This document shows, one piece after another, positions 9,679 to 54,782 of a stretch of DNA of 64,000 nucleotides; positions within the stretch are counted from its first letter, which is position 1; every line of letters starts with the position of its first letter. Origin of the DNA: Rickettsiales bacterium (GTDB lineage Bacteria; Pseudomonadota; Alphaproteobacteria; Rickettsiales; UBA1997); the NCBI GenBank assembly GCA_038123275.1, contig JAYORG010000001.1, positions 66,710 through 130,709 on the forward strand, written 5' to 3'. The position numbers and the translations under genes were made by a program. Under the pieces are notes generated by a model. The model did not search any database. It had not been told where the DNA came from and saw only the letters and a list, made by a program, of their open reading frames with translations.

Positions 9679-10365
9679 ATGACCGGGTTAGTTTTACAGG
9701 ATATCAATAAATCTTTTATTCAAGGAAAGCAGTCCTTACAGGTTTTAAAAAACATTAATCTTCAGGTTAATAGAGGCCAGATAGCAGCTTTAATTGGCCC
9801 TTCTGGTTCTGGAAAAACTACATTATTACAAATTGCTGGTTTACTTGATAGCCCTGATAGTGGCAATGTTAATATCGATAGTCACCATTTATCAGTTGAT
9901 GATTTAAAATCTAATGACAAAGAAAGAACATTAGTTCGTAGAAATAATTTAGGTTTTGTTTATCAATCTCACAATTTATTACCTGAATTTAGTGCAATTG
10001 AGAATATTGCTATGCCATTACTTATTAAAGGAGTTAGTAAAATTGAAGCTTTTCAAAAAGCAGAATTAATTTTACATGATATTGATTTAGAAGATAGAAA
10101 AACCCACCGTCCAAGCGAGCTTTCTGGAGGGCAGCAACAAAGAGTGGCAGTAGGTAGGGCAATTGCTTGCCAACCTTCTATTTTACTTGCGGACGAACCA
10201 ACTGGTAATTTAGATTCTGACAATGCTAAAAATATTTTTGAATTATTGATAGAGTTAACCAGACAATATAAGATTGCTACACTCATTGTAACACATAATA
10301 TTGAGTTAGCCAAAAAAACTGATAAAATTATTAAAATTAAAGATGGAGTTATCAGTGGCAAATAG
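9679..10365 (+). CDS. lolD: Lipoprotein-releasing ABC transporter ATP-binding protein LolD-like
   Basis: Walker A GPSGSGKTT, signature LSGGQQQRV, Walker B ILLADEPT. The ATG at 9679 is preferred over the TTG at 9652 used in the track. Confidence 0.8.
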   Translation: MTGLVLQDINKSFIQGKQSLQVLKNINLQVNRGQIAALIGPSGSGKTTLLQIAGLLDSPDSGNVNIDSHHLSVDDLKSNDKERTLVRRNNLGFVYQSHNLLPEFSAIENIAMPLLIKGVSKIEAFQKAELILHDIDLEDRKTHRPSELSGGQQQRVAVGRAIACQPSILLADEPTGNLDSDNAKNIFELLIELTRQYKIATLIVTHNIELAKKTDKIIKIKDGVISGK

Positions 10366-11449: not shown

Positions 11450-12634
11450 TTAATTTTTATTAAAAAACTCTTTTATTCTTTTTACTGTTTCAACAGTTTT
11501 TTCTTTGTCATGAATTAAAGAAAATCTAACATATCCCTCACCATTGCTACCAAAGCTGCTTCCTGGTGATAATGCAACGCCAGATTGTTTTATTAGATTG
11601 TCACAAAATTCAAAAGAATTCATATGTTTAAATTGATCTGGAATTTTAGCCCATAAAAACATGGTAGCTTTTGGTAAATTAACCTCCCAATTTAATTCTT
11701 TCTTTAATTCTTTTGCTAAAAATTGAGCTCTTTTAAAATAAATTGATCTAATATTTATTAAATAATCATCACTTTTTTCACTCATAGCATCAATAGATAC
11801 AAGTTGCAAAGGCATAAATGAGCCATAATCAAGATATGATTTAATTTTTTTCAAAGCGGCAATTAATTTTTTATTTCCAGCAGCAAATCCAACCCGACAT
11901 CCTGCCATGGAATAGCTTTTGCTTGTAGAAGTAAACTCAATAGCTATTTCTTTAGCATTTTTTACTTCTAAAACTGAAGGTGGTTTATTTTCTTCGCTAT
12001 AGTAAATTTCACAATAAGCAAGATCAGATATTATGTAAATTTGATGTCTAATGCAAAAATCGACTAATTGTTCATAAAAATCTAATCCAACTATGTCTGT
12101 TGTTGGGTTACAAGGGAAATTAACAATGACAGCTATTGGTTTTTCTCTTGAAGTTTCTACATGTTTTTTAAAATTTTCAAAAAATTGTTGTGGGTTTGGG
12201 TTATTTATGCTGACTGTTTTACTTTTAGCAATAATAAAGGCAAAAGTATGAATTGGATAGCTTGGGTTTGGTACAGCAATATGATTAGTATGATCACTAA
12301 TAGCAGTTGCTAAGCTAGTTAAACCTTCTTTGGCGCCAATTGTAACTAAGCTTTGTGTTTTATAGTCTAATTCAACATGGAATCTTCTTAAATAATAGTC
12401 ACAAAGCCCTTTTTTAAGTCTTTCCATGCCACCACTTACTGAATATCCATATAAGCTTGGATCTTTTGATAATTCTGTTAATTTTTCTATTACGTGATCT
12501 GGTGGTGGTAAGTCTGGATTTCCCATGCCATAATCAATAATGTCTAAACCTCTATTTTTAGCATCAATTTTTAATTGATCAATTTCAGCAAAAATATAAG
12601 CAGGTAATATATTGGTTAAATGAAACTCACTCAT
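11450..12634 (-). CDS. PLP-dependent class I aminotransferase, AlaC(YfdZ)-like
   Basis: Close by-eye match to E. coli AlaC along its length (DIIDYGMGNPD, VPNPSYPIH, SKSYSMAGCRVGF). Confidence 0.8.
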   Translation of the reverse strand: MSEFHLTNILPAYIFAEIDQLKIDAKNRGLDIIDYGMGNPDLPPPDHVIEKLTELSKDPSLYGYSVSGGMERLKKGLCDYYLRRFHVELDYKTQSLVTIGAKEGLTSLATAISDHTNHIAVPNPSYPIHTFAFIIAKSKTVSINNPNPQQFFENFKKHVETSREKPIAVIVNFPCNPTTDIVGLDFYEQLVDFCIRHQIYIISDLAYCEIYYSEENKPPSVLEVKNAKEIAIEFTSTSKSYSMAGCRVGFAAGNKKLIAALKKIKSYLDYGSFMPLQLVSIDAMSEKSDDYLINIRSIYFKRAQFLAKELKKELNWEVNLPKATMFLWAKIPDQFKHMNSFEFCDNLIKQSGVALSPGSSFGSNGEGYVRFSLIHDKEKTVETVKRIKEFFNKN

Positions 12635-14481: not shown

Positions 14482-14781
14482 TTAATAAACATCATAAGAG
14501 TTGGTGCCAGAGTAATACATTCTATTACCACAAATATTAAATTTAGAATATTTCATTAAGAATAACTCTAATGCTCTGGGTTCTTTTAAGCATAGAAGAT
14601 AACATAGGCCATGAATAACAGGCATCATTACCAAAAGATATACAAATTGCTCAGTAATAATAAAAACAAGCAATGAAACCAAGCCATTTATTGAAGCAAA
14701 ATTATAGGTAACACCAAACATCATTGGTGGACGAGTTAAGCCTAAAAATAGTGAATCACTGGATATTTTTCCATCAGCCAT
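14482..14781 (-). CDS. virB3: Type IV secretion system protein VirB3
   Basis: LFLGLTRPPMMFGVTYNF followed by two TM helices; 99 aa. Confidence 0.8.
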   Translation of the reverse strand: MADGKISSDSLFLGLTRPPMMFGVTYNFASINGLVSLLVFIITEQFVYLLVMMPVIHGLCYLLCLKEPRALELFLMKYSKFNICGNRMYYSGTNSYDVY

Positions 14782-14919: not shown

Positions 14920-16176
<1,257 letters not shown>

Positions 16177-16191
16177 TTTCAATTATCTACA

Positions 16192-16971
16192 ATGTTATTA
16201 GCAATAGATATTGGTAACAGTAATATAACCTTTGGTTTATTTGAGGGTAATAACTTAACTAATCAATATCGTATTGTTAGTGATTTGAGTAAAGATCATG
16301 AATCATACGCTCTTGATATTGTAGAGTTGCTCTTAAATGACAATATTGACTGCCTTAAAATTACAGATGTTATTATTGCTTCTGTTTCACCCAATTTAAC
16401 AAAAATTATTAAATTAGCTCTGCTAAAATTTTATCAAAATAAAATTTTAGTTATTGGTGAAAATGGTTTTAATATTGATATTAATATTAATTTAAAAAAT
16501 AAGGAAGAAGTTGGAATAGATCGTTTAGTTAATGCAAAGGCTGCTTATAAGAAATATGGTGGTAATTTAATAGTTATTGATTTTGGCACGGCAACAACTT
16601 TTGATATAGTTGGCAATAAAGGAGAATATCTAGGTGGAGTTATTGCGCCGGGAGTTAATTTATCCATAAAAGCCTTACATGATATGACAGCAAAATTGCC
16701 AAATATTAAGGTTAGATATCAAAAAAATGTTATTGGCAAATCAACCAAAGAGGCTATGAATTCTGGAATTTATTTTGGTTATATTAGTCTAATTGAAGGT
16801 TTAATTAAAAGAATCAAGAAAGAACATAAAAATAAAATGAAGGTTATTGTTACAGGTGGCTTATCAATATTATTTAGTGATGCAATTAAAGAGATAGATC
16901 ATGTGGAGTCTGACTTGATATTGAATGGATTAAATTTAGTATTTATTAACAATAATCTATTGCAAAGTTAA
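16192..16971 (+). CDS. coaX: Type III pantothenate kinase
   Basis: MLLAIDIGNSNITFGLF, DFGTATTFD and GIDRL motifs. Confidence 0.9.
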   Translation: MLLAIDIGNSNITFGLFEGNNLTNQYRIVSDLSKDHESYALDIVELLLNDNIDCLKITDVIIASVSPNLTKIIKLALLKFYQNKILVIGENGFNIDININLKNKEEVGIDRLVNAKAAYKKYGGNLIVIDFGTATTFDIVGNKGEYLGGVIAPGVNLSIKALHDMTAKLPNIKVRYQKNVIGKSTKEAMNSGIYFGYISLIEGLIKRIKKEHKNKMKVIVTGGLSILFSDAIKEIDHVESDLILNGLNLVFINNNLLQS

Positions 16972-17127
16972 TATTACTATGTAATGTTATGTTAAATTAT
17001 TGTAACTTACAAAAAAGGTAAACTAAAAGCTAAATTTAGTAGTTATAAATGGATAATTATGCTGTATTAGTATTAATTAGTTGCCTTTATGTAAGCACCA
17101 TTACATTTTAAGATAAATATTTTCTTT

Positions 17128-18054
17128 ATGCAAAAGTCGCTATTATTTATATTCATTTTTAATCTGGCATTTTGGCATAATAATTTTGCTGCTCATAGCT
17201 ACACAGATGTAGATTCTTTAAGTTCTGATATCGATTCTCTTTCTTCGTTTACAAGTTCTATGATTACCACATTAGAGGGCTATGATGTAAATGTTAGTAG
17301 TGACTTAACGGCTGCAACTACTATTACTACTGATCTTGCAGATTTTGCTAGTAATGGGGCAACATTTACAGATATAGATCTTAATAATTTACCAGCTAGT
17401 TTAGAAGGAACCGTTCTTGATAGCACTTCATCTTTTGGTAGTGAAATAGCTACCTTGGTAGGTGATTATTCTGATGTTGACACTTTAGTTAATGATAGTG
17501 ACCTTAATGATAATAATCACTTAATTGATGGTTTGGTTTCTACTTTAGGTGATAGTTTAAATTTAATTTCTTCTTGGCAATCAGATATTGCTGTTGCTCA
17601 AACTTATCTTATTTCTATCTTACCAATAACAGATGTTCCTGACATTGATATAGCTATTGATAATGTTGATATAATTACGGATTTACCAGATATTGCCAGT
17701 GAAGATGTTTTGCAGATAGAGTCGGATATACAAGAGGTTGCTAGTATTGATGATGCTATTAACGTAGAGGGTGATTTTATGGATGTTGATTCTTCATTGG
17801 CACTTAATAGTGAGTCTGGTGATTTAGTAGTTAATGATTTAGAAGATGATGGTATTGTCATGGATTACGAAATTAACCCTGACTCTAATAGTATAAGTGC
17901 AGATAATTTTAAAACAGAAAAATTTTCAATGAATAATGTAGAATCTGGGAATTTTGATAGTTCTCCTGTTCAATTAAGGAGTGTTAACATGCAAATAGGA
18001 GGTGTTAAAAATCAGTTCAGATCTTATGTTGAGAATAGATTGAAGGCTTGGTAA
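17128..18054 (+). CDS. Secreted, extremely acidic D/S/T-rich protein of unknown function
   Basis: Signal-like N-terminus with no lipobox Cys, and degenerate repeats (DVDSLSSDIDSLSS, DVPDIDIAIDNVDIITDLPDIASEDV). Its stop overlaps the next start (TAATG). Confidence 0.65.
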   Translation: MQKSLLFIFIFNLAFWHNNFAAHSYTDVDSLSSDIDSLSSFTSSMITTLEGYDVNVSSDLTAATTITTDLADFASNGATFTDIDLNNLPASLEGTVLDSTSSFGSEIATLVGDYSDVDTLVNDSDLNDNNHLIDGLVSTLGDSLNLISSWQSDIAVAQTYLISILPITDVPDIDIAIDNVDIITDLPDIASEDVLQIESDIQEVASIDDAINVEGDFMDVDSSLALNSESGDLVVNDLEDDGIVMDYEINPDSNSISADNFKTEKFSMNNVESGNFDSSPVQLRSVNMQIGGVKNQFRSYVENRLKAW

Positions 18055-19850
18055 TGAGTAAGTATTTTATCTTTATATTTCTGGTTATTTTTTCTTTATC
18101 CTCTAATAAGATTTATGCTAATGATGATTCTCAATCATTTATATTTAAAAGCGGTAGAGATTTGGTAGAAGGCTCTTCAGGAGAAATAGAGATTATAACG
18201 CAAAAATACCAAGATCATGACAGACTTATCTTTGATGTAACTGATGTTAGCGCTACATTCAAATCTTTTGCTAGCAATGACACTAATCTATTAATCATAG
18301 AAATAAATAATACTAATATTGACAATATTGATGATTTAGAATCATTCAATAATGACCTTATATCTAGTGTTAGCTATAAATCTGGATTAAAATCAGGTGT
18401 AATTTTATTTCTTAAGATGAAGAAATCATTTAAGATTAAAAAGTCTTTATATTTTATTCCTTTGGATAAATATGTTAAAAGATTTGTAGTTGATATTAAG
18501 GTTGATGATATTAAAGAAAGTGACAATCTTACTTATAAGCCGCAAATACTAACTTCCAAACAACAGCTTGGATATAAATATTTCTTTGCCAAAGATTATC
18601 ACGAATCTTACAAATATTTTATGCAAGATTATTTGGATAAAGAAAAAGAAGGTCTAAATAATGTTGAAAATATAATGAATTTAGGTGATGTATCATTTGA
18701 ATTAAAAGAATATTATGATGCCATCTATTATTACAATAAATTATTAGAAGAAAGACCTGATGCTAACAGGATTAGATTGAAATTAGCACAATCCTTGTTA
18801 TTTGTTAATGATAGTAAGAGGGCACAAAGGCATATTAATTATTTAATAAAATCAAAGCCACCAAAGAAAATTAGAAATGGTTTGGATTCTTTATTAAAAA
18901 AACTTAAAAATCATAAAGATTGGAAAGGAACAGTTGCTTTGGGGTATACATTTAATGATAATATTACTGGAATATCTGCTTCTGATTCAGTTAGTTATAC
19001 TAGGTCTGATACAGGTTTAACAGGGGTATTTAACCCTTATGAGCTTGGAATTGGCAAAAAAGAAGATCATGGTATAATTACTGCTGCTTCTTTGGATTAT
19101 AACCCTGTAATTAATGAAGATTTTCGTTTTGAAAATAAAATATTATTTAGCAATATAGATTATTCTAGTGAAAATGAATATTCTAGTAGAGATCTTTTGT
19201 TAAAGGTATCTCCAGTTTATTCAAAATATATTTCCAACAAAATGCTTACCCTTTCAACTCCTTTGATACTTAGTAAAACAAGGTTAGACTATAATCCATA
19301 TCGTGATTCTTATTCTTTAGGGTTAGCAGCTAGTTTAGCTATGAATAGCAAACTTAAACTTACATTCAAATATGATCAAACTCATAGTATTTATCAAAAA
19401 TCTGACGATAAGGGGTTAAATAATATTTCTGATAAATATTCTAGTTCTGCTTTATATAGGATATTTGATGATGGTGATGTAATTTCTAAGTTATTTTTAA
19501 TAATGACTTATAAAATGGAAGATAATGGCAATAGAAGAGATAATGCAGCCTTAAGTTTTGATTCTGATTCTATAATAGCAACTTTATATGCCATCGTTAA
19601 TAAGAAGGTTAAATATTATCTATCAATATCTAAAACTGATAAGCAATATTCTGGTAATTATTCTTGGAATTCTTATGCTCGAGAAGATGATTCAACAAAA
19701 ATGATTAATGGTTTAATTTATAGTTTCAAATATGATGATAAAGATTTTGATTTAAGTATTAATCATCGATATGTACAAAATGATTCTAACATGGAGTTAT
19801 TTAAATATGATGCCAATTTATTTACTATAAAATTATCTCACGATTTTTAG
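18054..19850 (+). CDS. Outer-membrane protein: AMIN-like domain + TPR + C-terminal beta-barrel (Slam/DUF560-like)
   Basis: Signal peptide. AMIN-like segment (RLIFDVTDVSATFKSF..LLIIEINNT..RFVVDIKV). TPR-like region (YKYFFAKDYHESYKYFMQ..YYDAIYYYNKLLEERPD). Then alternating beta-strand sequence starting WKGTVALGYTFNDNI and ending SNMELFKYDANLFTIKLSHDF. ATG at 18054 is preferred to TTG at 18048. Confidence 0.75.
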   Translation: MSKYFIFIFLVIFSLSSNKIYANDDSQSFIFKSGRDLVEGSSGEIEIITQKYQDHDRLIFDVTDVSATFKSFASNDTNLLIIEINNTNIDNIDDLESFNNDLISSVSYKSGLKSGVILFLKMKKSFKIKKSLYFIPLDKYVKRFVVDIKVDDIKESDNLTYKPQILTSKQQLGYKYFFAKDYHESYKYFMQDYLDKEKEGLNNVENIMNLGDVSFELKEYYDAIYYYNKLLEERPDANRIRLKLAQSLLFVNDSKRAQRHINYLIKSKPPKKIRNGLDSLLKKLKNHKDWKGTVALGYTFNDNITGISASDSVSYTRSDTGLTGVFNPYELGIGKKEDHGIITAASLDYNPVINEDFRFENKILFSNIDYSSENEYSSRDLLLKVSPVYSKYISNKMLTLSTPLILSKTRLDYNPYRDSYSLGLAASLAMNSKLKLTFKYDQTHSIYQKSDDKGLNNISDKYSSSALYRIFDDGDVISKLFLIMTYKMEDNGNRRDNAALSFDSDSIIATLYAIVNKKVKYYLSISKTDKQYSGNYSWNSYAREDDSTKMINGLIYSFKYDDKDFDLSINHRYVQNDSNMELFKYDANLFTIKLSHDF

Positions 19851-19942
19851 ACGCTATTAACAAATAGCTAAAGATCTTTGACATTTTATCCTTTTATTCT
19901 ACACTATCTTTTTCATAAATTTTCCAATTAAAATTATTGTCA

Positions 19943-32259: not shown

Positions 32260-34290
32260 ATGTCACGTAGTAATAATAATGGATCAAAAAATCCTATACC
32301 TAATGAATTGGAAGTGCAAAATCTAGTTAGTAAAATATTTTTTTATACTTTTGCTAATAAAAATCCTGAAATTATTGATAGAAATCCGGATCTTTTTAAC
32401 AATAAAAGAAAATATAAAATTACTAAGGTTGCTCGTGCGGCGTTCGAGATATTGGATCATACAGACGTTAAGGGTCACAAAACTGGTGTATCTGGTTGGA
32501 GTAATATGGATAAAATAACAAAGGAAAATAGGGGAAAAATATATCCAATATATGCAAAAGTACCAATACTAACTGTTGCTTATTCCATTAATATGATAGC
32601 GCTTTCTATACTTTCTCCTGCAATAGTTCCATGGGGAATATATGCTTCAACGCAAGATCTTAAAAATGCATTAAAATCAAAAGTAAAATCTAGGGAAGAT
32701 AGGAGACTAATAGAGTCTGAGATTGAAAAATTTACTAGTTTGGTTACTGAATTAAGTCAAGAAAAAAGGACAGAACTTGCTACTATCTTGGAAAGAACTG
32801 TAAAAGAAATTTCTATTGATAATAGGCCTATAAAACCTAGTGTTCCTGCAGATAAAATTAAAAGAAAAGATAAACAATCTATTTTTGTAATAGGAGAAGC
32901 TATAGATAAGGCTAGATCTGAAGAAATAGCAAACATGATTCAACAAAAAAATCATTCAGTAGTAACAAAAAATCAAATGTCATTACCTGTTCAGATTAAC
33001 TTAGTATCTAATACAATAACAGAAGATGCTTTTAAAATAATATTAGAATCAATAAAAAATAGTGGGAGACTTACAAAGCTACATTTAAACAGTAATAATT
33101 TAAGCGAGAATCAAGTTGACTTACTTTTGCAATATACCAAAGAATGTGCCAATTTAATACCACTCTTAGAAATGGTAAACGCTAATCAAAGTCAAAGAGA
33201 TGGACTGGCATCAGCAACAAGAGATAACTATATGATGTCAACTGTTTTGCAAAACGGATTAGAACGTAATGCTGACAATATTATGGATAAATCAGTTTTT
33301 AGAAACAGTGCAGCAATATATCCTTGGGATAATACAAGTAAAAGATGTAAACAATTTTTATCCACTAAAACAAACAGTGAAAAGAAAAAACTTTTTGATA
33401 AATGTAATGACGCCATAGAAAGATTTAATGAAAATTCTTTAAGTAATTTTAATAATAACTCTATCTTAAAGAAGATGGATCAAAAATTAGGACTAACAGC
33501 AATAAAAGTTGGGGGTAGTCGTCTTAGTGGAAAACATCATACCAGTTGGCTTACATTTAAAGTAGATTCCCCTGAAATACAAAGACTTGTTGATAATAAT
33601 GTTCAATCTAATGCAAAATTACCGTGCGACGTATCTCGAAATCTTGATGGATCTTGGCAAGTAAATGTTAAACGCTCTCAATTAAAAAACTTTCTTGGAA
33701 ATTTTTTTGATGGTTTTGAAAATTTGCGTAATAAAGATATTTATTCCCAAATGAAAAGGGAAGCAAGAGGATTTAATCCCCTTCAGCAGGAAGATTTTAT
33801 GGAAACAAAGCATGAACAACAGGCAGTTAACCTGAGTCACTTTGAATCAAAACAACAAAATATGGAGGCAGAGTCTTCTTCTGTTAATAAAGAAAGTAAA
33901 TCTACACAACAACAACCAAAAAATAAAGGAAAGTCATCAGAAATTAATGAGCAGGAAGAAGATAAATTAAAGAGTGATAAACCTAAAAAAGAAAAGAGAA
34001 AAAAGAAGAAAAAGAAAGATAATAGAATTAGTCCAAACCCTAATCAAGAACTTAAAGAAACAAGGAAAAATATAAGTGAACAAGATCAGTCTAATCCCAT
34101 TGACAAAGTGGTTCTAGGTAGTCAATCTGGAAATGGATCTTCTATAGAAGAGCAACCTTTAATAAAAAGGAGAGCAAAATTACCGCCAATTTCAAGGAGG
34201 GATTCGCCATCACCAAGCCCTAAATCGGCTCAACTTCATGATAAACAAATTGGAAGTCGTGGAAGTCGTGAAGTTGAACAAGGCAGATAA
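32260..34290 (+). CDS. Hypothetical effector-like protein with an LRR-like segment and a C-terminal poly-lysine (NLS-like) tract
   Basis: One hydrophobic segment (VPILTVAYSINMIALSILSPAIVPWGIY), LTKLHLNSNNLSENQVDLLLQY, and KPKKEKRKKKKKKDNR near the C-terminus. Confidence 0.75.
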   Translation: MSRSNNNGSKNPIPNELEVQNLVSKIFFYTFANKNPEIIDRNPDLFNNKRKYKITKVARAAFEILDHTDVKGHKTGVSGWSNMDKITKENRGKIYPIYAKVPILTVAYSINMIALSILSPAIVPWGIYASTQDLKNALKSKVKSREDRRLIESEIEKFTSLVTELSQEKRTELATILERTVKEISIDNRPIKPSVPADKIKRKDKQSIFVIGEAIDKARSEEIANMIQQKNHSVVTKNQMSLPVQINLVSNTITEDAFKIILESIKNSGRLTKLHLNSNNLSENQVDLLLQYTKECANLIPLLEMVNANQSQRDGLASATRDNYMMSTVLQNGLERNADNIMDKSVFRNSAAIYPWDNTSKRCKQFLSTKTNSEKKKLFDKCNDAIERFNENSLSNFNNNSILKKMDQKLGLTAIKVGGSRLSGKHHTSWLTFKVDSPEIQRLVDNNVQSNAKLPCDVSRNLDGSWQVNVKRSQLKNFLGNFFDGFENLRNKDIYSQMKREARGFNPLQQEDFMETKHEQQAVNLSHFESKQQNMEAESSSVNKESKSTQQQPKNKGKSSEINEQEEDKLKSDKPKKEKRKKKKKKDNRISPNPNQELKETRKNISEQDQSNPIDKVVLGSQSGNGSSIEEQPLIKRRAKLPPISRRDSPSPSPKSAQLHDKQIGSRGSREVEQGR

Positions 34291-35227: not shown

Positions 35228-36106
35228 CTAATTATCAATTTTAATTCTCCATTTTTTTGATAAGTAATTTTCTACCTTAATTATTTGATTTTGATCAAGA
35301 ATTTTATTAAAAATAATTACTTCTCCAATATACCCTTTCCACAGCGAGCTAGTAGTAGAAAAATGTCTTAATGCACCTATTGTTCCTAGGTTAAAATTGG
35401 CATTACCCACATTGATATCTTCATTATAAAATACAACTTTACCATTAACTCTTACACTAGCAGTATGGTTAATTATTGAAGTTCTAATTTCAGGTAAGTT
35501 GGTTACTTTTCCTCCAGATATTTTTTTAATAACTGTACCAGAATCATTTATTTTTAAAATTCTGTAATTAGCTTCCAAATTATTGTCTATGTAAAGTCTA
35601 GAATTTTCATCTGTTGATAAACCAAGGGAAAGTAGCGTAGTTTCACTTAATAAATTAGATCTAGTATCTTGAGAAACAGTAAATATTGTTATTTCTTTAT
35701 TTTTTCCATTAAAAATTGAAGATAAGTCATTAATAGAGTAATAATCATTACCGTCAAACTCAATTGCTGGTAGGTAGTTAATGGCATTGCTAATGTAAGA
35801 TGGATCACCATGTGATTTTGCACTTACTTTTAACCCTGGATGATAAATATTTTTCCAAGAGGTAACAATATTATTATCTACATTTTCATTATTAATAAAG
35901 CTTCTTTTTGAAGTGGTTTCAAACCAACTTATTAAGTTTTTCATTGACAAAATAGGAGAGGTAGAGGTTAGAGATCTAGCCTTGGTCAATTGTGCTGATT
36001 TAAATATTGAAAAGCCAGAAGCTAATCCGCTAAGTAATAAAACAACAGTTACTACTATTATTAATTGATTTATTAAGGTGAGTTTTTTTTTGTTTCTTTT
36101 GGTCAT
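35228..36106 (-). CDS. Membrane-anchored LamG/concanavalin-like domain protein with a pilin-like N-terminal helix
   Basis: KKKLTLINQLIIVVTVVLLLSG N-terminus. The C-terminus (WKGYIGEVIIFNKILDQNQIIKVENYLSKKW) is typical of LamG_3-type domains. Confidence 0.7.
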   Translation of the reverse strand: MTKRNKKKLTLINQLIIVVTVVLLLSGLASGFSIFKSAQLTKARSLTSTSPILSMKNLISWFETTSKRSFINNENVDNNIVTSWKNIYHPGLKVSAKSHGDPSYISNAINYLPAIEFDGNDYYSINDLSSIFNGKNKEITIFTVSQDTRSNLLSETTLLSLGLSTDENSRLYIDNNLEANYRILKINDSGTVIKKISGGKVTNLPEIRTSIINHTASVRVNGKVVFYNEDINVGNANFNLGTIGALRHFSTTSSLWKGYIGEVIIFNKILDQNQIIKVENYLSKKWRIKIDN

Positions 36107-42983: not shown

Positions 42984-44960
42984 TTAAGATAATAATTGAG
43001 TTTTTAAAACTTCAATTGCATTCTTAATTCCATCTTTATTATTTCCACCACCAAACGCAAGATCTGGTTTTCCGCCACCACCTTTACCACCAATATTTTC
43101 TACTATTACAGGGATTAATTTACCAGCATTAAATTTTAAACATAAATCCTGGCTAATTGCTATGGCAACTGCAACTTTACCTTCAAGGCTACTAAAAAAG
43201 CAAATTATTGTATTTTCATTATTTTCTTTTTTAGATTTAATTTGCGTAATTGCATCTCTTAAATCTTTAGCATTTGTATCTTCAAAATAATGGTGAATTA
43301 AATTAATGTTATTAATTTTCTCATTTTCAAAATCTGTAGATAAGCTAAGTTGTTCCTTTTTCTTTTTTTCTATTTCTTTATTAACTTTTTTTAGTTTTTC
43401 TTGAAGATTTAAAATTTGTAAATCAAATTCTTTTATCTTTTTCCTAAATTCATCAATCTTTCCAATATCATCATTATTTTCAAATGTTTTTAAGGGTGGG
43501 TCAAACTCTATTTCAAAGCCGCTAATGTTACCTTCTTGACATTTTTGAATTAATCTATCTCGTAATTCAAACCATTTATTGTTAAGTTTAGTTAAGTTAT
43601 CTTCCATATCCTTAATAGCTGATATACTGGTTTTAGCTGTAATTCTTCTAATTCCCGCAGCTATTGATTTTTCAGAAATAATTTTAAAACATTCAATATC
43701 ACCTAAATTTTCAACATGAGTTCCACCACAAAATTCAACTGATAAATATTTATTATTTTTATCTTTTCCCATACTTAAAACTCTTACAACTTCACCATAT
43801 TTTTCACCAAATAAAGCAACTGCCCCTTTCTTTTTTGCTTCTTCTAATCTTATTGTTTCAACTGTCGTGTTGGTTTTTTGGGTAATTAATTGATTAACCT
43901 CATCTTCAATTCTTTCTAGGTCAGATTCTAGGATTTTTTCATTATGGTTAAAGTCAAAAGTAAAAGAATTATTAGCAACATCAGAACCTTTTTGAGTTAG
44001 CTGTTTACCAAAATTTTTTCTTAAAATATAATGTAATAAATGTGTTGCACTATGAGCCCTCTTTTTGCCTGACCTTCTATTTACTTGTGCTTCAATCTCA
44101 TCTCCAACTTTAAATTCTCCTTGGATTTTACTAACTATATGAACAAATAACTTTTCAGCTTTTTTTACCGTTTCCTTAATCTCAATTATATCTTTTGATG
44201 AACTTTGTATTTGCCCTTCATCACCTCTTTGCCCACCAGAAGTTGCATAAAATGGAGTTTGATTAAGAATAATCTCAACATTTTTGTCACCTTCTTTAAT
44301 ATTTCCAACTTCTTTGCCATCCTTAATAATTGCTATAATATTTGCGCTAACTCCTTCATTGTCTTTGGCTTCATATATTAAATTTGTATCAGTTACTCCA
44401 AGCTTTTCTTTTAAATTAAAATAAATTGAATCATCAGCTATACTACCACTACCTGACCAATTTTTTCTTGCTCTATCTCTTTGTTTTTGCATTTCATTTT
44501 CAAAGCTAGAAATATTAACTTCAATATTTCTTTCTTTTAAAATGGTTTGAGTTAAATCCAGTGGAAATCCATAAGTGTCATAAAGTTTAAAAGCAGTTTG
44601 GCCATTAAATTTATTATTTTTAATGTTTTTTGATTCTTTTTCCAAAACTTCAATACCTTTAGCTAGGTTTTTTCTAAATCTTTCTTCTTCAATTTTTAAA
44701 CTATTGATAATTAAATCTTGAGCTTCCTTTAATTCAGGAAAAGCATCCGACATTTTATTAACTAAAGTTGGCACTAATTTATAGATAAAGGCTTCTTTTT
44801 CGTTTAATTTATGAGAATGTAACATGGCTCTTCTCATTATTCTTCTTAAAACATATCCCCTGCCTTCATTGCTTGGAAGTATGCCATCAGCTATTAAAAA
44901 GGCACTTGAGCGTAAGTGATCGGCGATAACTTTATAAGATGAGTTGATTTTATTATTCAC
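42984..44960 (-). CDS. alaS: Alanyl-tRNA synthetase, C-terminal fragment (tRNA-recognition, editing and C-Ala domains)
   Basis: Begins (GTG) NNKINSSYKVIADHLRSSAFLIADGILPSNEGRGYVLRRIMRRA. Contains the editing motif HSATHLLH, CGGTHV and GGKGGGGKPDLAFGGG. Confidence 0.9.
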   Translation of the reverse strand: MNNKINSSYKVIADHLRSSAFLIADGILPSNEGRGYVLRRIMRRAMLHSHKLNEKEAFIYKLVPTLVNKMSDAFPELKEAQDLIINSLKIEEERFRKNLAKGIEVLEKESKNIKNNKFNGQTAFKLYDTYGFPLDLTQTILKERNIEVNISSFENEMQKQRDRARKNWSGSGSIADDSIYFNLKEKLGVTDTNLIYEAKDNEGVSANIIAIIKDGKEVGNIKEGDKNVEIILNQTPFYATSGGQRGDEGQIQSSSKDIIEIKETVKKAEKLFVHIVSKIQGEFKVGDEIEAQVNRRSGKKRAHSATHLLHYILRKNFGKQLTQKGSDVANNSFTFDFNHNEKILESDLERIEDEVNQLITQKTNTTVETIRLEEAKKKGAVALFGEKYGEVVRVLSMGKDKNNKYLSVEFCGGTHVENLGDIECFKIISEKSIAAGIRRITAKTSISAIKDMEDNLTKLNNKWFELRDRLIQKCQEGNISGFEIEFDPPLKTFENNDDIGKIDEFRKKIKEFDLQILNLQEKLKKVNKEIEKKKKEQLSLSTDFENEKINNINLIHHYFEDTNAKDLRDAITQIKSKKENNENTIICFFSSLEGKVAVAIAISQDLCLKFNAGKLIPVIVENIGGKGGGGKPDLAFGGGNNKDGIKNAIEVLKTQLLS

Positions 44961-47726: not shown

Positions 47727-49214
47727 ATGAAGGATGAAAATAATATAAAAGATAAGGAAATAGAAGCTGAAGCTGAAGTCGAAGAAGAAGATTACGAAGA
47801 AGAAGAATACGACTATGATGATGATTCGGTAGATGCTGGGGGGCCTGATGTTGCTAGTGGAAAAGGTAGTAAAATGACTCTTATTGCTTTTTCAGCAGTA
47901 TTAATGGCTGTTGTATTTTATTTTCTATTTTTTAAAGGCAGTGAACAATCATCAGATGGCGATAATTTAGATTTAGTAACACCAGATTCCGATTTTTCAA
48001 GTGAGACACCCGCCGATGCAACAGATTTAGAAGATTTTGACTCCATTTTTGGTAAAACTGTAGAAGATACACGTGAAGATGTAATATTAGAAACTCCTGA
48101 TATTCCATCCATTCCACAATTACCTGATGTATTTGAAAATGATGCTTCAGATGATATTTTACCAGCTTTTTTAGATTTACCTAAAGAGCAACAACAATTT
48201 GACAGTAAAGGTCGTCCAATAACGCCTGGTCTTTCAGGGTCATCTCAATTGGACTTTGCTGATGGTTTGTTGCCACAAAATTTAGTTGCTGGCTCTATTG
48301 ACCAATCTGGCCTAGGTGTTTTGCCTGGACAGCAGGTTGTTCCAGGAGCTCCTGGCCTACCCAATCCTGCAGGAGTTCCAGGCGCTCCAGGGGTGCCAAG
48401 TGCTGCTGGTGTTTCTCCTGGAGGTGTTGTTGATCCTCAGCTTAATACCATGACACCTTCTTCAATTATTGTTGTTGCTGGAGCTCCAGGGCCAACCAAT
48501 AGTATTGGCTATGAAAATAATATTATTAATTTAAATAAAGATCCAATTGCAGATTTAGAAGTTACAGCTCCACAAATAACCTCACAATATATTAGCGATA
48601 GAACAACAACTTTAATACAGGGTAAAATTATAACAGCAGTTTTAGAAACAGCAATTAATACAGAGTTTCCCGGTGAGGTCAGAGGTATTATTAGTAGACA
48701 TGTTTATGCAGAGTCTGGTAATAATATTTTGATACCAAGAGGATCAAGAATTTATGGATCATATTCTAGTACAGTTATCAGAGGTCAGGCTCGAGTAACA
48801 ATTAGTTGGAGTAGATTAATTAGGCCAGATGGTGTTGATGCTTCAGTTTCGCTAAATGCTTCTGATCAATTTGGTAGAGCTGGAATTCAAGGTGACGTAG
48901 ATAATAAATATGGGTCGATTATCACTAATTCTATTTTAACCAGTGTTTTAGCTGTTGGTGGTGCTATTGCTGCTGAAAAATTAGCAGAAGATGCTAGTTC
49001 TACAACTACAACAGATCCAACCACTGGTACAAGTACAACTACTGGAAGTGCTTCTGCTCAGGCAATTGCAGATGTTAGTGAAACTATTATTGATACTGTT
49101 GGTACAATTGCTACTAATGCCATTAATGTAGATCCTGTTATTAGGGTACCACAGGGAACAAAAATAACTATTGTAGTAAACAGCGACATGAGTCTGCCAG
49201 AATTCAAAAATTAG
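47727..49214 (+). CDS. virB10: Type IV secretion system protein VirB10/TrbI
   Basis: Acidic N-terminus, one TM helix, a Pro-rich linker (PGAPGLPNPAGVPGAPGVP) and a TrbI-type C-terminus (GKIITAVLETAINTEFPG..RIYGSY..RVTISWSRLIRPDG..GIQGDVDN). Confidence 0.85.
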   Translation: MKDENNIKDKEIEAEAEVEEEDYEEEEYDYDDDSVDAGGPDVASGKGSKMTLIAFSAVLMAVVFYFLFFKGSEQSSDGDNLDLVTPDSDFSSETPADATDLEDFDSIFGKTVEDTREDVILETPDIPSIPQLPDVFENDASDDILPAFLDLPKEQQQFDSKGRPITPGLSGSSQLDFADGLLPQNLVAGSIDQSGLGVLPGQQVVPGAPGLPNPAGVPGAPGVPSAAGVSPGGVVDPQLNTMTPSSIIVVAGAPGPTNSIGYENNIINLNKDPIADLEVTAPQITSQYISDRTTTLIQGKIITAVLETAINTEFPGEVRGIISRHVYAESGNNILIPRGSRIYGSYSSTVIRGQARVTISWSRLIRPDGVDASVSLNASDQFGRAGIQGDVDNKYGSIITNSILTSVLAVGGAIAAEKLAEDASSTTTTDPTTGTSTTTGSASAQAIADVSETIIDTVGTIATNAINVDPVIRVPQGTKITIVVNSDMSLPEFKN

Positions 49215-53756: not shown

Positions 53757-54545
53757 TTAATTATTTGATGATTTCTCAATATCTTTAATAATTTTCTCAA
53801 AGATATCAGTTTCATAATTATCAGTTTTACCTTGAATAACGCTGGCAATTCTTTCTAGCCCCATTCCTGTATCAATGCATGGTTTTGGTAAATTATTCAT
53901 ATTACCTTTCTCGTCTTTTTCAAATTGCATAAAGACTAAATTCCATATTTCAACAAACCTGTCTCCATCTTCATCTTTACTTCCTGGAGGTCCTCCTTGA
54001 ACTTTATCACCATAATCATAGAAAATTTCGCTACAAGGGCCACAAGGGCCAGTTTTACCCATGGACCAAAAGTTGTCATGGGTTTTAATTTGAATTATTT
54101 TATCTTCTTTAAAGCCAGCAATTTTTTGCCATAACTTGGAAGACTCAAAGTCTTCATGATAAACAGTAATTAATAATTTATCTTGTGGTAGTGCTAATTC
54201 TTTATTCAAAAATTGCCAAGCATAATAAATAGCTTCTTCTTTAAAATAATCACCAAAAGAAAAGTTACCAAGCATTTCAAAGAAGGTGTGATGCCGAGCA
54301 GTAAAGCCAACATTATCAAGATCATTATGTTTTCCTCCAGCTCTAACACATTTTTGGGAGGTGGCAACACGTTTAAATTCTGGTTTTTCTAATCCGGTAA
54401 AATAGTTTTTAAAAGGCACCATTCCAGCATTAACAAACATTAATGTTGGGTCTTTATGTGGAATTAGAGGGGAAGAAGGTAAAATATGGTGGTCATTATT
54501 TTTAAAATAATCTAAAAATTTTTCTCTTATTTGATTTGTTAACAT
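53757..54545 (-). CDS. alaS: Alanyl-tRNA synthetase, N-terminal fragment (class II catalytic core only)
   Basis: [59 protein letters not shown] and [12 protein letters not shown], then a stop after ...[11 protein letters not shown] at 54545 is preferred to TTG at 54566. Confidence 0.9.
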
Positions 54546-54782
54546 TATATTTCTTTTTAAAAACAAACTTGTTTATTCTAGTAATTAAAAAATTATTCTA
54601 TTAGATTTAAAAATACTATAATTTTTTATGGTATACCCACAAATGACGCAGGAAGTTGTTTACAATTTCTGAGTAATTTGTCAATTGGTAAATAAAATTA
54701 TCAAGTACAAGGTGGGACGCCAATAATTCGGCGTAAAATTAATATTAATCTTCAGGTTAATATGAAATTAAAACTTACTTAA

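What the first reader, a model, noticed from the sequence alone, without database searches (positions are those of the whole stretch)
17128..19850. AMIN-TPR-beta-barrel outer-membrane protein coupled to a hyper-acidic secreted protein: possible Slam/type XI-like export pair
Seen directly:
- The two genes overlap by TAATG.
- The upstream product has a signal peptide (no lipobox) and is almost entirely D/S/T/I/L with degenerate repeats.
- The downstream 598-aa product has a signal peptide and an AMIN-like segment (a domain otherwise seen on PilQ/AmiC), followed by TPR-like helices.
- It then has a ~300-aa amphipathic beta-strand region beginning WKGTVALGYTFNDNI and ending in an aromatic residue (..IKLSHDF).
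Established knowledge: TPR + DUF560 barrels (Slam, type XI secretion) export the product of a neighbouring gene.
Inference: this is a T11SS-like pair with a non-lipoprotein acidic cargo and an unusual AMIN addition, in an intracellular-lifestyle genome. An alternative is a PgaA/BcsC-like TPR-porin.
Basis: partly seen in the sequence, partly recalled or inferred. Interest (0 to 1): 0.7.

Follow-up and report, generated by a model that had tools for sequence, protein, structure and literature searches.

The report
Divergent type 11 secretion gene pair
An uncultured Rickettsiales-like bacterium carries an inserted two-gene cassette: a clear but very divergent type 11 (Slam-family) outer-membrane secretion protein, and just upstream an orphan, extremely acidic exported protein that sits where the cargo gene normally is but lacks the usual cargo domain.

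Summary
Two co-oriented genes overlap by TAATG. ORF A (17128-18054) is 308 aa, has a Sec-type leader, no cysteine, 55 D/E against 8 K/R, and no basic residue from position 4 to 261. ORF B (18054-19850) is 598 aa.

ORF B is a type 11 secretion (Slam/DUF560) outer-membrane protein:
- Its barrel alone passes Pfam's SlipAM cut-off.
- An exhaustive HMMER search gave 201 relatives, and 49 of the 62 aligned sequences (ORF B plus 61 relatives) carry SlipAM.
- The AlphaFold2 model shows a TPR domain and a 14-strand barrel at pLDDT above 90.
- The PgaA/BcsC alternative is rejected.

The "AMIN" call is not verified. It scores 14-15 bits, below the cut-off, and shuffled copies of the segment score as well against unrelated families. 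The "degenerate repeats" in ORF A are no better than composition predicts.

The pair is a 2.9-kb insertion between coaX and rnj. These two genes are directly adjacent in the nearest Rickettsiales metagenome-assembled genomes (MAGs).

In 6 of 7 relatives inspected, the gene next to the OMP encodes a protein ending in the canonical TbpB_B_D cargo barrel. ORF A holds that position but shows no trace of the domain.

ORF A is therefore probably a non-canonical cargo (about 50%), and this remains untested. It has no homologues and gave no usable structure model.

The parts
17128..18054 (+). ORF A: 308-aa orphan, Sec-leader-bearing, cysteine-free, hyper-acidic protein (putative non-canonical T11SS cargo)
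   Evidence: ORF and translation. Composition and charge. No Pfam, NCBIfam or PDB hit. No homologue other than itself. AF2 single-sequence model unusable, pLDDT 36.
17128..17199 (+). ORF A predicted Sec (SPI-type) signal peptide, residues 1-24 (MQKSLLFIFIFNLAFWHNNFAAHS); no Cys, so no lipobox
   Evidence: Read directly from the translation. No signal-peptide predictor was available.
17137..17910 (+). ORF A stretch free of K/R, residues 4-261. The mature, D/S/T/I/L/N-rich part begins after the leader at about residue 25.
   Evidence: Charge profile in 30-residue blocks. Repeats are not significant.
17911..18051 (+). ORF A C-terminal tail, residues 262-308. It holds 7 of the 8 basic residues and ends ..RSYVENRLKAW. 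Candidate recognition element (inference only).
   Evidence: helix 290-307 predicted, but at low confidence. No TbpB_B_D match for residues 192-308 scanned alone.
18042..18056 (+). Translational-coupling junction: GAAGG (18042-18046), stop TAA (18052-18054) overlapping ATG (18054-18056)
   Evidence: Sequence read.
18054..19850 (+). ORF B: 598-aa T11SS-family (Slam/DUF560) outer-membrane protein
   Evidence: The called 598-aa gene is identical on three Logan contigs.
18054..18119 (+). ORF B signal peptide, residues 1-22 (MSKYFIFIFLVIFSLSSNKIYA|ND)
   Evidence: Read from the translation. No Cys.
18120..18548 (+). ORF B extra N-terminal domain, residues 23-165. Orphan; AMIN-like pattern by eye but statistically unverified.
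   Evidence: AMIN E 0.03-0.046, below cut-off. Shuffle control. No relative aligns here. pLDDT below 50. No PDB sequence hit.
18555..18908 (+). ORF B periplasmic TPR domain, residues 168-285, seven helices
   Evidence: TPR_Slam E 1.4e-5 plus other TPR models. Designed-TPR PDB hits. AF2 helices at pLDDT 90-97.
18921..19847 (+). ORF B 14-stranded DUF560/SlipAM beta-barrel, residues 290-598, ending in F
   Evidence: PF04575 E 3.7e-5, 23.8 bits against a cut-off of 22, profile 1-288/288. 14 long DSSP strands at pLDDT above 90. Family-invariant N303 and near-invariant G297, D301, Y532, R543, S578 are kept.
16972..19936 (+). Lineage-specific insertion between coaX (ends 16971) and rnj (starts 19937/19943), holding only ORF A and ORF B
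   Evidence: coaX and rnj are adjacent in L020 (9982/10001) and L011 (1999/2004), and in other Alphaproteobacteria. No ORF A or ORF B is present in those loci.

Best explanation
This is a self-contained, horizontally acquired type 11 secretion module in an uncultured Rickettsiales-like bacterium.

Shown:
- ORF B is a Slam/DUF560-family outer-membrane protein. It has a Sec leader, an extra ~140-aa periplasmic N-terminal domain of unknown fold, a TPR domain and a 14-strand barrel.
- ORF A and ORF B are co-oriented and overlap by TAATG.
- The two genes were inserted together between coaX and rnj.
- Close relatives of ORF B have their cargo gene in the same immediately adjacent position.

Inferred:
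- Both proteins cross the inner membrane through Sec.
- BAM inserts ORF B into the outer membrane.
- The periplasmic TPR and N-terminal region of ORF B captures ORF A.
- The barrel passes ORF A to the cell surface or medium.
- ORF A lacks the canonical C-terminal eight-stranded barrel. Its recognition would then depend on something else. My guess is the only basic, non-acidic part, the C-terminal ~47 residues.
- The long stretch without K/R, Cys or aromatic clusters would travel as an extended polyanion. Outside the cell it could act as a surface coat, a cation binder or a host-interaction protein.

Sub-confidences: ORF B is a T11SS-family OMP, about 0.95. The pair is one acquired unit, about 0.85. 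ORF A is the exported cargo, about 0.5.
For: - Barrel alone: PF04575 SlipAM E 3.7e-5, 23.8 bits, above the cut-off of 22, full-length profile match.
- TPR_Slam is the best whole-protein Pfam hit.
- Exhaustive phmmer gave 201 hits, with the best non-self E 1e-17. They align over residues ~170-598 to 420-450-aa proteins.
- 49 of the 62 aligned sequences (ORF B plus 61 relatives) carry SlipAM and 50 of 62 carry TPR_Slam.
- AF2 with that alignment gives TPR and barrel at pLDDT above 90 and 14 long strands. This matches the predicted 14-stranded DUF560 barrel plus TPR N-domain of Slams (PMC5449769).
- Family-conserved residues are retained.
- The TAATG overlap with GAAGG 7 nt upstream supports translational coupling.
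- The insertion is shown by coaX-rnj adjacency in the nearest MAGs, which lack both genes.
- Neighbours of relatives: a TbpB_B_D protein lies ~20 nt upstream of P0004, P0005 and P0007, and directly downstream of P0029, P0086 and P0134.
- Soluble, non-lipidated T11SS cargo is established (PMC8406197).
Against: - ORF A has no detectable TbpB_B_D, FHBP_C or lipoprotein-C-type barrel. Pfam found nothing at E<=1 for the whole protein or for residues 192-308 alone.
- hhalign against a profile of the six neighbour cargo barrels gave probability 0.03.
- The GxF[FY]GPxAxE[VA]GG motif is absent.
- ORF A has no homologues, so conservation of the pairing cannot be tested.
- Its AF2 model is uninformative, pLDDT 36.
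- For marine cluster 3 T11SS OMPs, the published analysis raises the possibility that the cargo is not adjacent, is unrecognisable, or does not exist (PMC12282271).
- No T11SS member outside cluster 1 has been tested experimentally (PMC12282271).
- Only 64 kb of the genome was visible, so a canonical cargo may exist elsewhere.
Confidence: 0.5

Rival explanations
1. ORF B is a T11SS-family OMP, but ORF A is not its cargo. ORF A would be a co-transcribed periplasmic or envelope protein, for example an accessory factor, a chaperone-like polyanion or a cation buffer. ORF B would serve a cargo encoded elsewhere, or have a function other than protein export.
For: - ORF A lacks the cargo barrel that every adjacent gene had in 6 of 7 inspected relatives.
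- Grossman et al. 2025 report that cluster 3 T11SS OMPs seldom sit next to recognisable cargo and may have other functions (PMC12282271).
- Only 64 kb of a contig of at least 239 kb was visible.
Against: - The two genes were inserted together as the only content of the coaX-rnj insertion.
- They overlap in a coupling arrangement.
- ORF A sits exactly where P0004, P0005 and P0007 have their cargo.
- No accessory periplasmic partner is known for T11SS. The OMP is described as the only required component (PMC9100927 abstract).
Confidence: 0.3
2. The cassette is a decaying relic. A once-canonical cargo gene has drifted beyond recognition under AT pressure in a reductive genome, and the pair no longer works.
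For: - ORF A is an orphan of biased composition with no fold prediction.
- ORF B is only 17-23% identical to its aligned relatives (up to 35% over local HMMER stretches) and barely clears the Pfam cut-off.
- The genome shows signs of rearrangement, such as a split alaS.
Against: - Both frames are intact over 308 and 598 codons in 29% GC DNA.
- Both have host-like codon usage.
- ORF B keeps the family's invariant and near-invariant residues, and its model is highly confident.
- Both leaders and the coupling junction are intact.
- The sequence is identical on three independent run assemblies.
Confidence: 0.12
3. ORF B is a PgaA/BcsC/PelB-type TPR-porin that exports an exopolysaccharide.
For: - Foldseek's top PDB matches include PelB (9h80), BcsC (9b8a, 6tzk) and PgaA (4y25).
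- Like those proteins, ORF B has a TPR domain followed by a barrel.
Against: - Those matches are generic. TM-scores are 0.28-0.34 on the query, ranked alongside FadL, CymA and OmpG (14-strand barrels, TMt up to 0.63).
- The sequence family is SlipAM, not a BcsC/PgaA family.
- The model has 14 strands.
- No glycosyltransferase or EPS synthase gene flanks it. The neighbours are coaX and rnj.
Confidence: 0.03

Closest known systems
Type 11 secretion system OMPs (Slam1/Slam2 of Neisseria, NilB and HrpB of Xenorhabdus, HsmA; Pfam PF04575 SlipAM + PF24575 TPR_Slam)
   Same: - Sec leader, periplasmic TPR domain and a C-terminal 14-strand DUF560 barrel ending in an aromatic residue.
- A single OMP gene tightly linked to a gene for a Sec-exported protein.
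   Different: - Only 17-23% identical to the aligned relatives (up to 35% over local HMMER stretches).
- An extra ~140-aa N-terminal domain that no relative shares.
- Found in a Rickettsiales-like genome. The papers searched mention no T11SS there.
- The linked gene lacks the TbpB_B_D-type barrel.
Soluble T11SS cargo (HrpC, hemophilin HphA; the 'TbpBBDsol' class)
   Same: ORF A has an SPI-type leader and no lipobox, and is encoded next to the OMP gene (PMC8406197).
   Different: Those cargo proteins are single eight-stranded TbpBBD barrels that bind haem. ORF A has no such domain, has no homologues, and is hyper-acidic.
'Disordered N-terminus' and Pls-like predicted T11SS cargo (Grossman et al. 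2025, PMC12282271)
   Same: Like ORF A, these have a long low-complexity or possibly disordered effector region ahead of the C-terminus.
   Different: Those architectures still end in the eight-stranded barrel and are mostly lipoproteins. ORF A ends in a ~47-residue basic tail, too short for such a barrel.
Metagenomic relatives P0004, P0005, P0007 (cargo upstream) and P0029, P0086, P0134 (FecR-Big_9-TbpB_B_D cargo downstream)
   Same: They are among ORF B's sequence relatives (P0004, P0005 and P0007 are among the closest; P0086 and P0134 are more distant, E 6e-6 and 6e-5). They share the two-gene layout, with gaps of about 10-20 nt or an overlap.
   Different: Their partners carry a clear C-terminal TbpB_B_D domain, E 1e-8 to 1e-13. 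Their OMPs are 431-624 aa and lack ORF B's N-terminal domain. Some carry other add-ons instead.
AMIN domain (PF11741; N-termini of AmiC and PilQ)
   Same: - Position at the N-terminus of a periplasm-facing region of an envelope protein.
- A two-fold pattern by eye (..DRLIFDV..NLLIIEI.. / ..GVILFLKM..KRFVVDI..).
- The only Pfam hit for this segment.
   Different: The score is below the cut-off and no better than hits of shuffled controls. There is no confident fold. Membership is not established.

Membership tests
T11SS outer-membrane protein (Slam/DUF560 family) | C-terminal DUF560/SlipAM domain (PF04575) | tested here: met
   - Residues 286-598 scanned alone: E 3.7e-5, 23.8 bits against a cut-off of 22, profile 1-288/288.
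- The domain was not reported in the whole-protein scan.
- Independent support: phmmer relatives at E down to 1e-17, and 49 of the 62 aligned sequences (ORF B plus 61 relatives) carry SlipAM.
T11SS outer-membrane protein (Slam/DUF560 family) | 14-stranded beta-barrel | tested here: met
   AF2 model with a 62-sequence alignment. DSSP gives 14 long strands between residues 290 and 597 at pLDDT above 90, plus one short loop hairpin. The best-fitting solved barrels are the 14-strand OmpG and CymA. No solved Slam structure surfaced.
T11SS outer-membrane protein (Slam/DUF560 family) | N-terminal periplasmic TPR domain | tested here: met
   TPR_Slam E 1.4e-5 (25.9 bits, below the cut-off of 35.2), plus 8 generic TPR-repeat models among the other weak hits. 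Designed-TPR PDB hits. Seven helices at residues 168-285, pLDDT 90-97.
T11SS outer-membrane protein (Slam/DUF560 family) | Demonstrated export or surface display of a cargo | not testable with these tools
   This needs co-expression and secretion assays.
T11SS cargo (for ORF A) | [quoted passage not shown] | tested here: not met
   - No Pfam hit at E<=1 for the whole protein or for residues 192-308.
- hhalign against the 6-sequence neighbour-cargo profile gave probability 0.03.
- hmmsearch --max found nothing.
- The structure test failed for lack of confidence.
T11SS cargo (for ORF A) | Sec signal peptide (SPI or SPII) and a gene adjacent to the OMP gene | tested here: met
   The leader was read from the sequence and there is no Cys. 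The TAATG overlap links it to ORF B. No SignalP run was possible.
AMIN domain (PF11741), for ORF B residues 23-165 | Match to the AMIN profile above the curated cut-off, or an AMIN fold | tested here: inconclusive
   - 14.2-14.8 bits against a cut-off of 20.5, E 0.03-0.046.
- 4 of 10 shuffled or reversed controls reach E below 0.05 on unrelated families.
- pLDDT below 50.
PgaA/BcsC/PelB exopolysaccharide TPR-porins | 16-strand barrel of the BcsC/PgaA families, encoded within an EPS synthase operon | tested here: not met
   14 strands. No BcsC/PgaA family hit. The flanks are coaX and rnj. Foldseek matches are only generic.

The most novel reading that the evidence does not exclude
A type 11 secretion OMP exports a barrel-less, hyper-acidic, probably extended polypeptide. 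Recognition would use a different signal, perhaps the short basic C-terminal tail bound by the TPR or extra N-terminal domain. This would be a new cargo class and targeting mode for T11SS, and the first T11SS module in a Rickettsiales-type, presumably host-associated, bacterium.
Probability: 0.3. Interest if true: 0.7.

Novelty: new variant of a known kind. Interest (0 to 1): 0.45.

Why it matters
All experimentally verified T11SS cargo, and nearly all predicted ones, share a C-terminal eight-stranded barrel thought to be the targeting domain (PMC12282271). What the many T11SS OMPs without such neighbours do is an open question.

This pair is a minimal, naturally isolated two-gene cassette. 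The only candidate cargo has no such barrel. A single co-expression experiment in E. coli could show whether T11SS can move a different kind of substrate.

If it can, cargo prediction based on TbpBBD would be incomplete. Rickettsiales-like symbionts would also gain a previously unrecognised route for putting proteins on their surface.

If it cannot, the locus is simply a divergent Slam-family gene with an orphan neighbour.

Tried and rejected
- Word-indexed homology searches with ORF B, with ORF A and with the family alignment returned only the proteins themselves or generic TPR proteins. They gave no information on AMIN+SlipAM architectures.
- The genome-contig scan with ORF B found no relative.
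- PDB sequence searches found only designed TPRs for ORF B, nothing for its N-terminal domain, and nothing for ORF A.
- The Foldseek PDB search gave only generic outer-membrane barrels and no solved Slam.
- The single-sequence AF2 model of ORF A had pLDDT 36 and was unusable, so no fold search was run on it.
- The N-terminal domain of ORF B was not resolved by AF2.
- A BLASTP hint between ORF A 211-237 and the start of the P0004-neighbour barrel (E 0.15) was not upheld by hhalign.
- No repeats, terminators, enriched promoters, mobile-element marks or Rfam RNAs flank or lie within the insertion.
- Codon usage gives no sign of recent transfer.
- The cluster look-up gave no names or accessions.
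- Literature searches found no paper linking AMIN with DUF560, or T11SS with Rickettsiales. That is absence in the library searched only.
Full report
**1. What is there**

The window is about 29% GC. Between coaX (16192-16971) and rnj (19937/19943-21673) lie two co-oriented ORFs.
- ORF A runs 17128-18054 (308 aa) and ORF B runs 18054-19850 (598 aa from the ATG).
- The stop of ORF A (TAA, 18052-18054) overlaps the ATG of ORF B (18054-18056), giving TAATG. A GAAGG motif lies 7 nt upstream.
- The same 598-aa and 308-aa products are encoded identically on three independent run assemblies.
- Both ORFs have host-like GC by codon position and host-like codon usage.

**2. ORF A**

- It has a Sec-type leader (MQKS, then a hydrophobic core, then ..FAAHS) and no cysteine, so it is not a lipoprotein.
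- It has 55 D/E against 8 K/R. There is no K or R between residues 4 and 261, and seven of the eight basic residues fall in the last 47 residues.
- It is the only ORF of this kind in the window.
- The "degenerate repeats" are not supported. TRF finds none, and the best internal alignment is matched by 18 of 60 shuffles.
- It has no Pfam, NCBIfam or PDB match.
- It has no homologue other than itself in the 5.8-billion-protein index.
- A single-sequence AF2 model is uninformative, with pLDDT 36.

**3. ORF B is a T11SS/Slam-family OMP**

- The top whole-protein Pfam hit is TPR_Slam (E 1.4e-5, below the cut-off), together with a set of generic TPR models.
- The barrel region scanned alone matches PF04575 SlipAM (DUF560) end to end: E 3.7e-5, 23.8 bits against a curated cut-off of 22.
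- An exhaustive phmmer search of 1.84 billion representatives gave 201 hits at E<=1e-3. The best non-self hit has E 1e-17. Hits are mostly 420-450-aa proteins that align with residues ~170-598.
- Of the 62 aligned sequences (ORF B plus 61 relatives), 49 carry SlipAM and 50 carry TPR_Slam.
- ORF B keeps the family's invariant N303 and its near-invariant positions.
- AF2 with this alignment gives mean pLDDT 79.8. Residues 168-598 are mostly above 90. The model has seven TPR helices (168-285) and 14 long strands (290-597).
- This is the published Slam architecture of a TPR N-domain plus a predicted 14-stranded DUF560 barrel (PMC5449769).
- Foldseek against the PDB returns only generic barrels (PelB, FadL, BcsC, CymA, OmpG). 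No solved Slam came up.
- The PgaA/BcsC alternative fails on strand count, family assignment and gene context.

**4. The N-terminal extra domain (residues 23-165)**

- No relative aligns to it.
- The only Pfam hit is AMIN, at E 0.03-0.046 and 14-15 bits against a cut-off of 20.5.
- As a control I scanned one reversed and nine shuffled copies. Four of the ten gave hits at E below 0.05 to unrelated families. The AMIN score is therefore at noise level for this composition.
- By eye the segment shows the two-fold strand pattern typical of AMIN. This is a lead, not a test.
- AF2 did not resolve the segment.
- In passing, other long family members carry different N-terminal add-ons. OmpA is strong in P0061 and P0062. 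Ankyrin is strong in P0068. SH3_3 (P0086) and SPOR (P0134) are weak.
- A cell-wall-anchoring module ahead of the TPR domain would therefore have precedent in the family. I rate AMIN at roughly 0.35-0.4.

**5. Genomic context: a two-gene insertion**

- A scan with RNase J found the nearest genomes. They are uncultured Rickettsiales MAGs at 56-68% identity, some with evidently wrong species labels.
- L020 keeps the order aspS-virB3-aminotransferase-coaX-rnj, with coaX ending at 9982 and rnj starting at 10001.
- L011 has coaX ending at 1999 and rnj starting at 2004.
- coaX is followed closely by rnj (gaps of about 18-60 nt) in seven more distant Alphaproteobacteria.
- None of these loci contains ORF A or ORF B.
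- The pair is thus a 2.9-kb lineage-specific insertion holding nothing else.
- No repeats, terminators or mobile-element marks flank it.
- Its composition is fully host-like, so the acquisition is not recent.

**6. Is ORF A the cargo?**

I inspected the neighbourhoods of seven relatives.
- In P0004, P0005 and P0007, a gene ending ~20 nt upstream of the OMP gene encodes a protein whose extreme C-terminus is a TbpB_B_D/FHBP_C barrel.
- In P0029, P0086 and P0134, the gene immediately downstream encodes FecR and TbpB_B_D, with Big_9 also present in the P0029 and P0086 partners.
- The seventh, P0006, sits on too short a contig.
- ORF B's relatives are therefore canonical T11SS with canonical, tightly linked cargo, and ORF A sits in the upstream cargo slot.
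- ORF A nevertheless has no such domain. Pfam finds nothing even for residues 192-308 alone.
- hhalign against a profile of the six neighbour barrels gives probability 0.03.
- The conserved GxF[FY]GPxAxE[VA]GG motif is absent, and no ORF in the 64-kb window matches the profile.
- Published work holds that known and predicted cargo are unified by this barrel. It also notes that marine cluster 3 OMPs rarely sit beside it and may use unrecognised cargo or have other roles (PMC12282271).
- Soluble, non-lipidated cargo is established (PMC8406197), so the lack of a lipobox is not unusual.

**7. Mechanism proposed**

Shown:
- The family and fold of ORF B.
- The coupling and joint insertion of the two genes.
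- The positional equivalence of ORF A to the cargo genes of relatives.

Inferred:
- Sec exports both proteins.
- ORF B assembles in the outer membrane.
- The periplasmic region of ORF B captures ORF A, and the barrel releases it to the surface or medium.
- The basic C-terminal tail of ORF A serves as the recognition element.
- The polyanionic body acts extracellularly.

I put ORF B as a T11SS-family OMP at about 0.95, the pair as one unit at about 0.85, and ORF A as cargo at about 0.5.

Rivals:
- ORF A is an accessory or unrelated envelope protein, and the real cargo is elsewhere or absent (about 0.3).
- The cassette is a decaying relic (about 0.12).
- ORF B is an EPS porin (about 0.03).

**8. 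Novelty and score**

- ORF B is a very divergent new member of a known family with an unshared N-terminal domain.
- The linked gene fails the defining cargo test, so the module is best filed as a new variant of a known kind.
- No paper in the searchable library connects T11SS with Rickettsiales, or AMIN with DUF560.
- Interest is moderate at 0.45. The family call is solid but ordinary.
- The interesting part, a barrel-less hyper-acidic cargo, is unproven. It is directly testable with a two-gene co-expression experiment.

Noticed in passing
window 42984-44960 (-) and 53757-54566 (-): Alanyl-tRNA synthetase appears split.
- The 658-aa ORF matches Pfam tRNA-synt_2c only from profile position 266 on, plus tRNA_SAD and DHHA1.
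- The missing catalytic N-terminus ([18 protein letters not shown] motif) lies in a separate 269-aa ORF about 8.8 kb away on the same strand.
- VirB10/TrbI, an NtrC-like regulator and other genes lie in between.
This could be a real split gene, a rearrangement or a misassembly.
   Followed up: partly
window 604-2982 (+): A 792-aa ORF combines a TrbC/VirB2 pilin match (E 7.7e-6) with a eukaryote-type Sushi/SCR repeat match (E 3.5e-7). It lies in a stretch of higher GC, 0.35-0.365 against about 0.29.
   Followed up: no
window 604-2982, 14482-14781, 47727-49214: Type IV secretion genes (VirB2-like, VirB3, VirB10/TrbI) are scattered singly among housekeeping genes. The aspS-virB3 adjacency is conserved in the related MAG locus L020. 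This fits a Rickettsiales-type layout.
   Followed up: partly
proteins P0061, P0062, P0068, P0086, P0134 (relatives of ORF B): T11SS-family OMPs repeatedly carry extra N-terminal modules ahead of the TPR domain. OmpA is strong (E 1e-17) and ankyrin is strong (E 1e-24). SH3_3 and SPOR are weak. This suggests cell-wall anchoring or protein-binding add-ons are a recurring theme in the family.
   Followed up: partly
L004 2769-11827; L037 2351-4783; L042 5675-8230: In several AT-rich relatives the T11SS OMP is followed by large FecR-(Big_9/cadherin)-TbpB_B_D proteins. In L004 it is preceded by a CHASE2-guanylate cyclase gene and followed by a Laminin_G/cadherin giant protein. In L042 the FecR-TbpB_B_D gene is followed by a TonB-dependent receptor gene. 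FecR-domain T11SS cargo may be a distinct architecture.
   Followed up: no
window 3042-5522 (-), 32260-34290 (+), 35228-36106 (-): Three sizeable ORFs (825, 676 and 291 aa) have no Pfam family at the thresholds used.
   Followed up: no
window 11450-12634 (-) and 14953-16176 (+): Two class I/II aminotransferase genes flank aspS-virB3. The second lies two genes upstream of the T11SS pair. Aspartate aminotransferase is listed among genes co-occurring with marine cluster 3 T11SS OMPs (PMC12282271). Here the linkage looks incidental, because the aminotransferase-coaX-rnj order exists without the T11SS pair in L011 and L020.
   Followed up: partly
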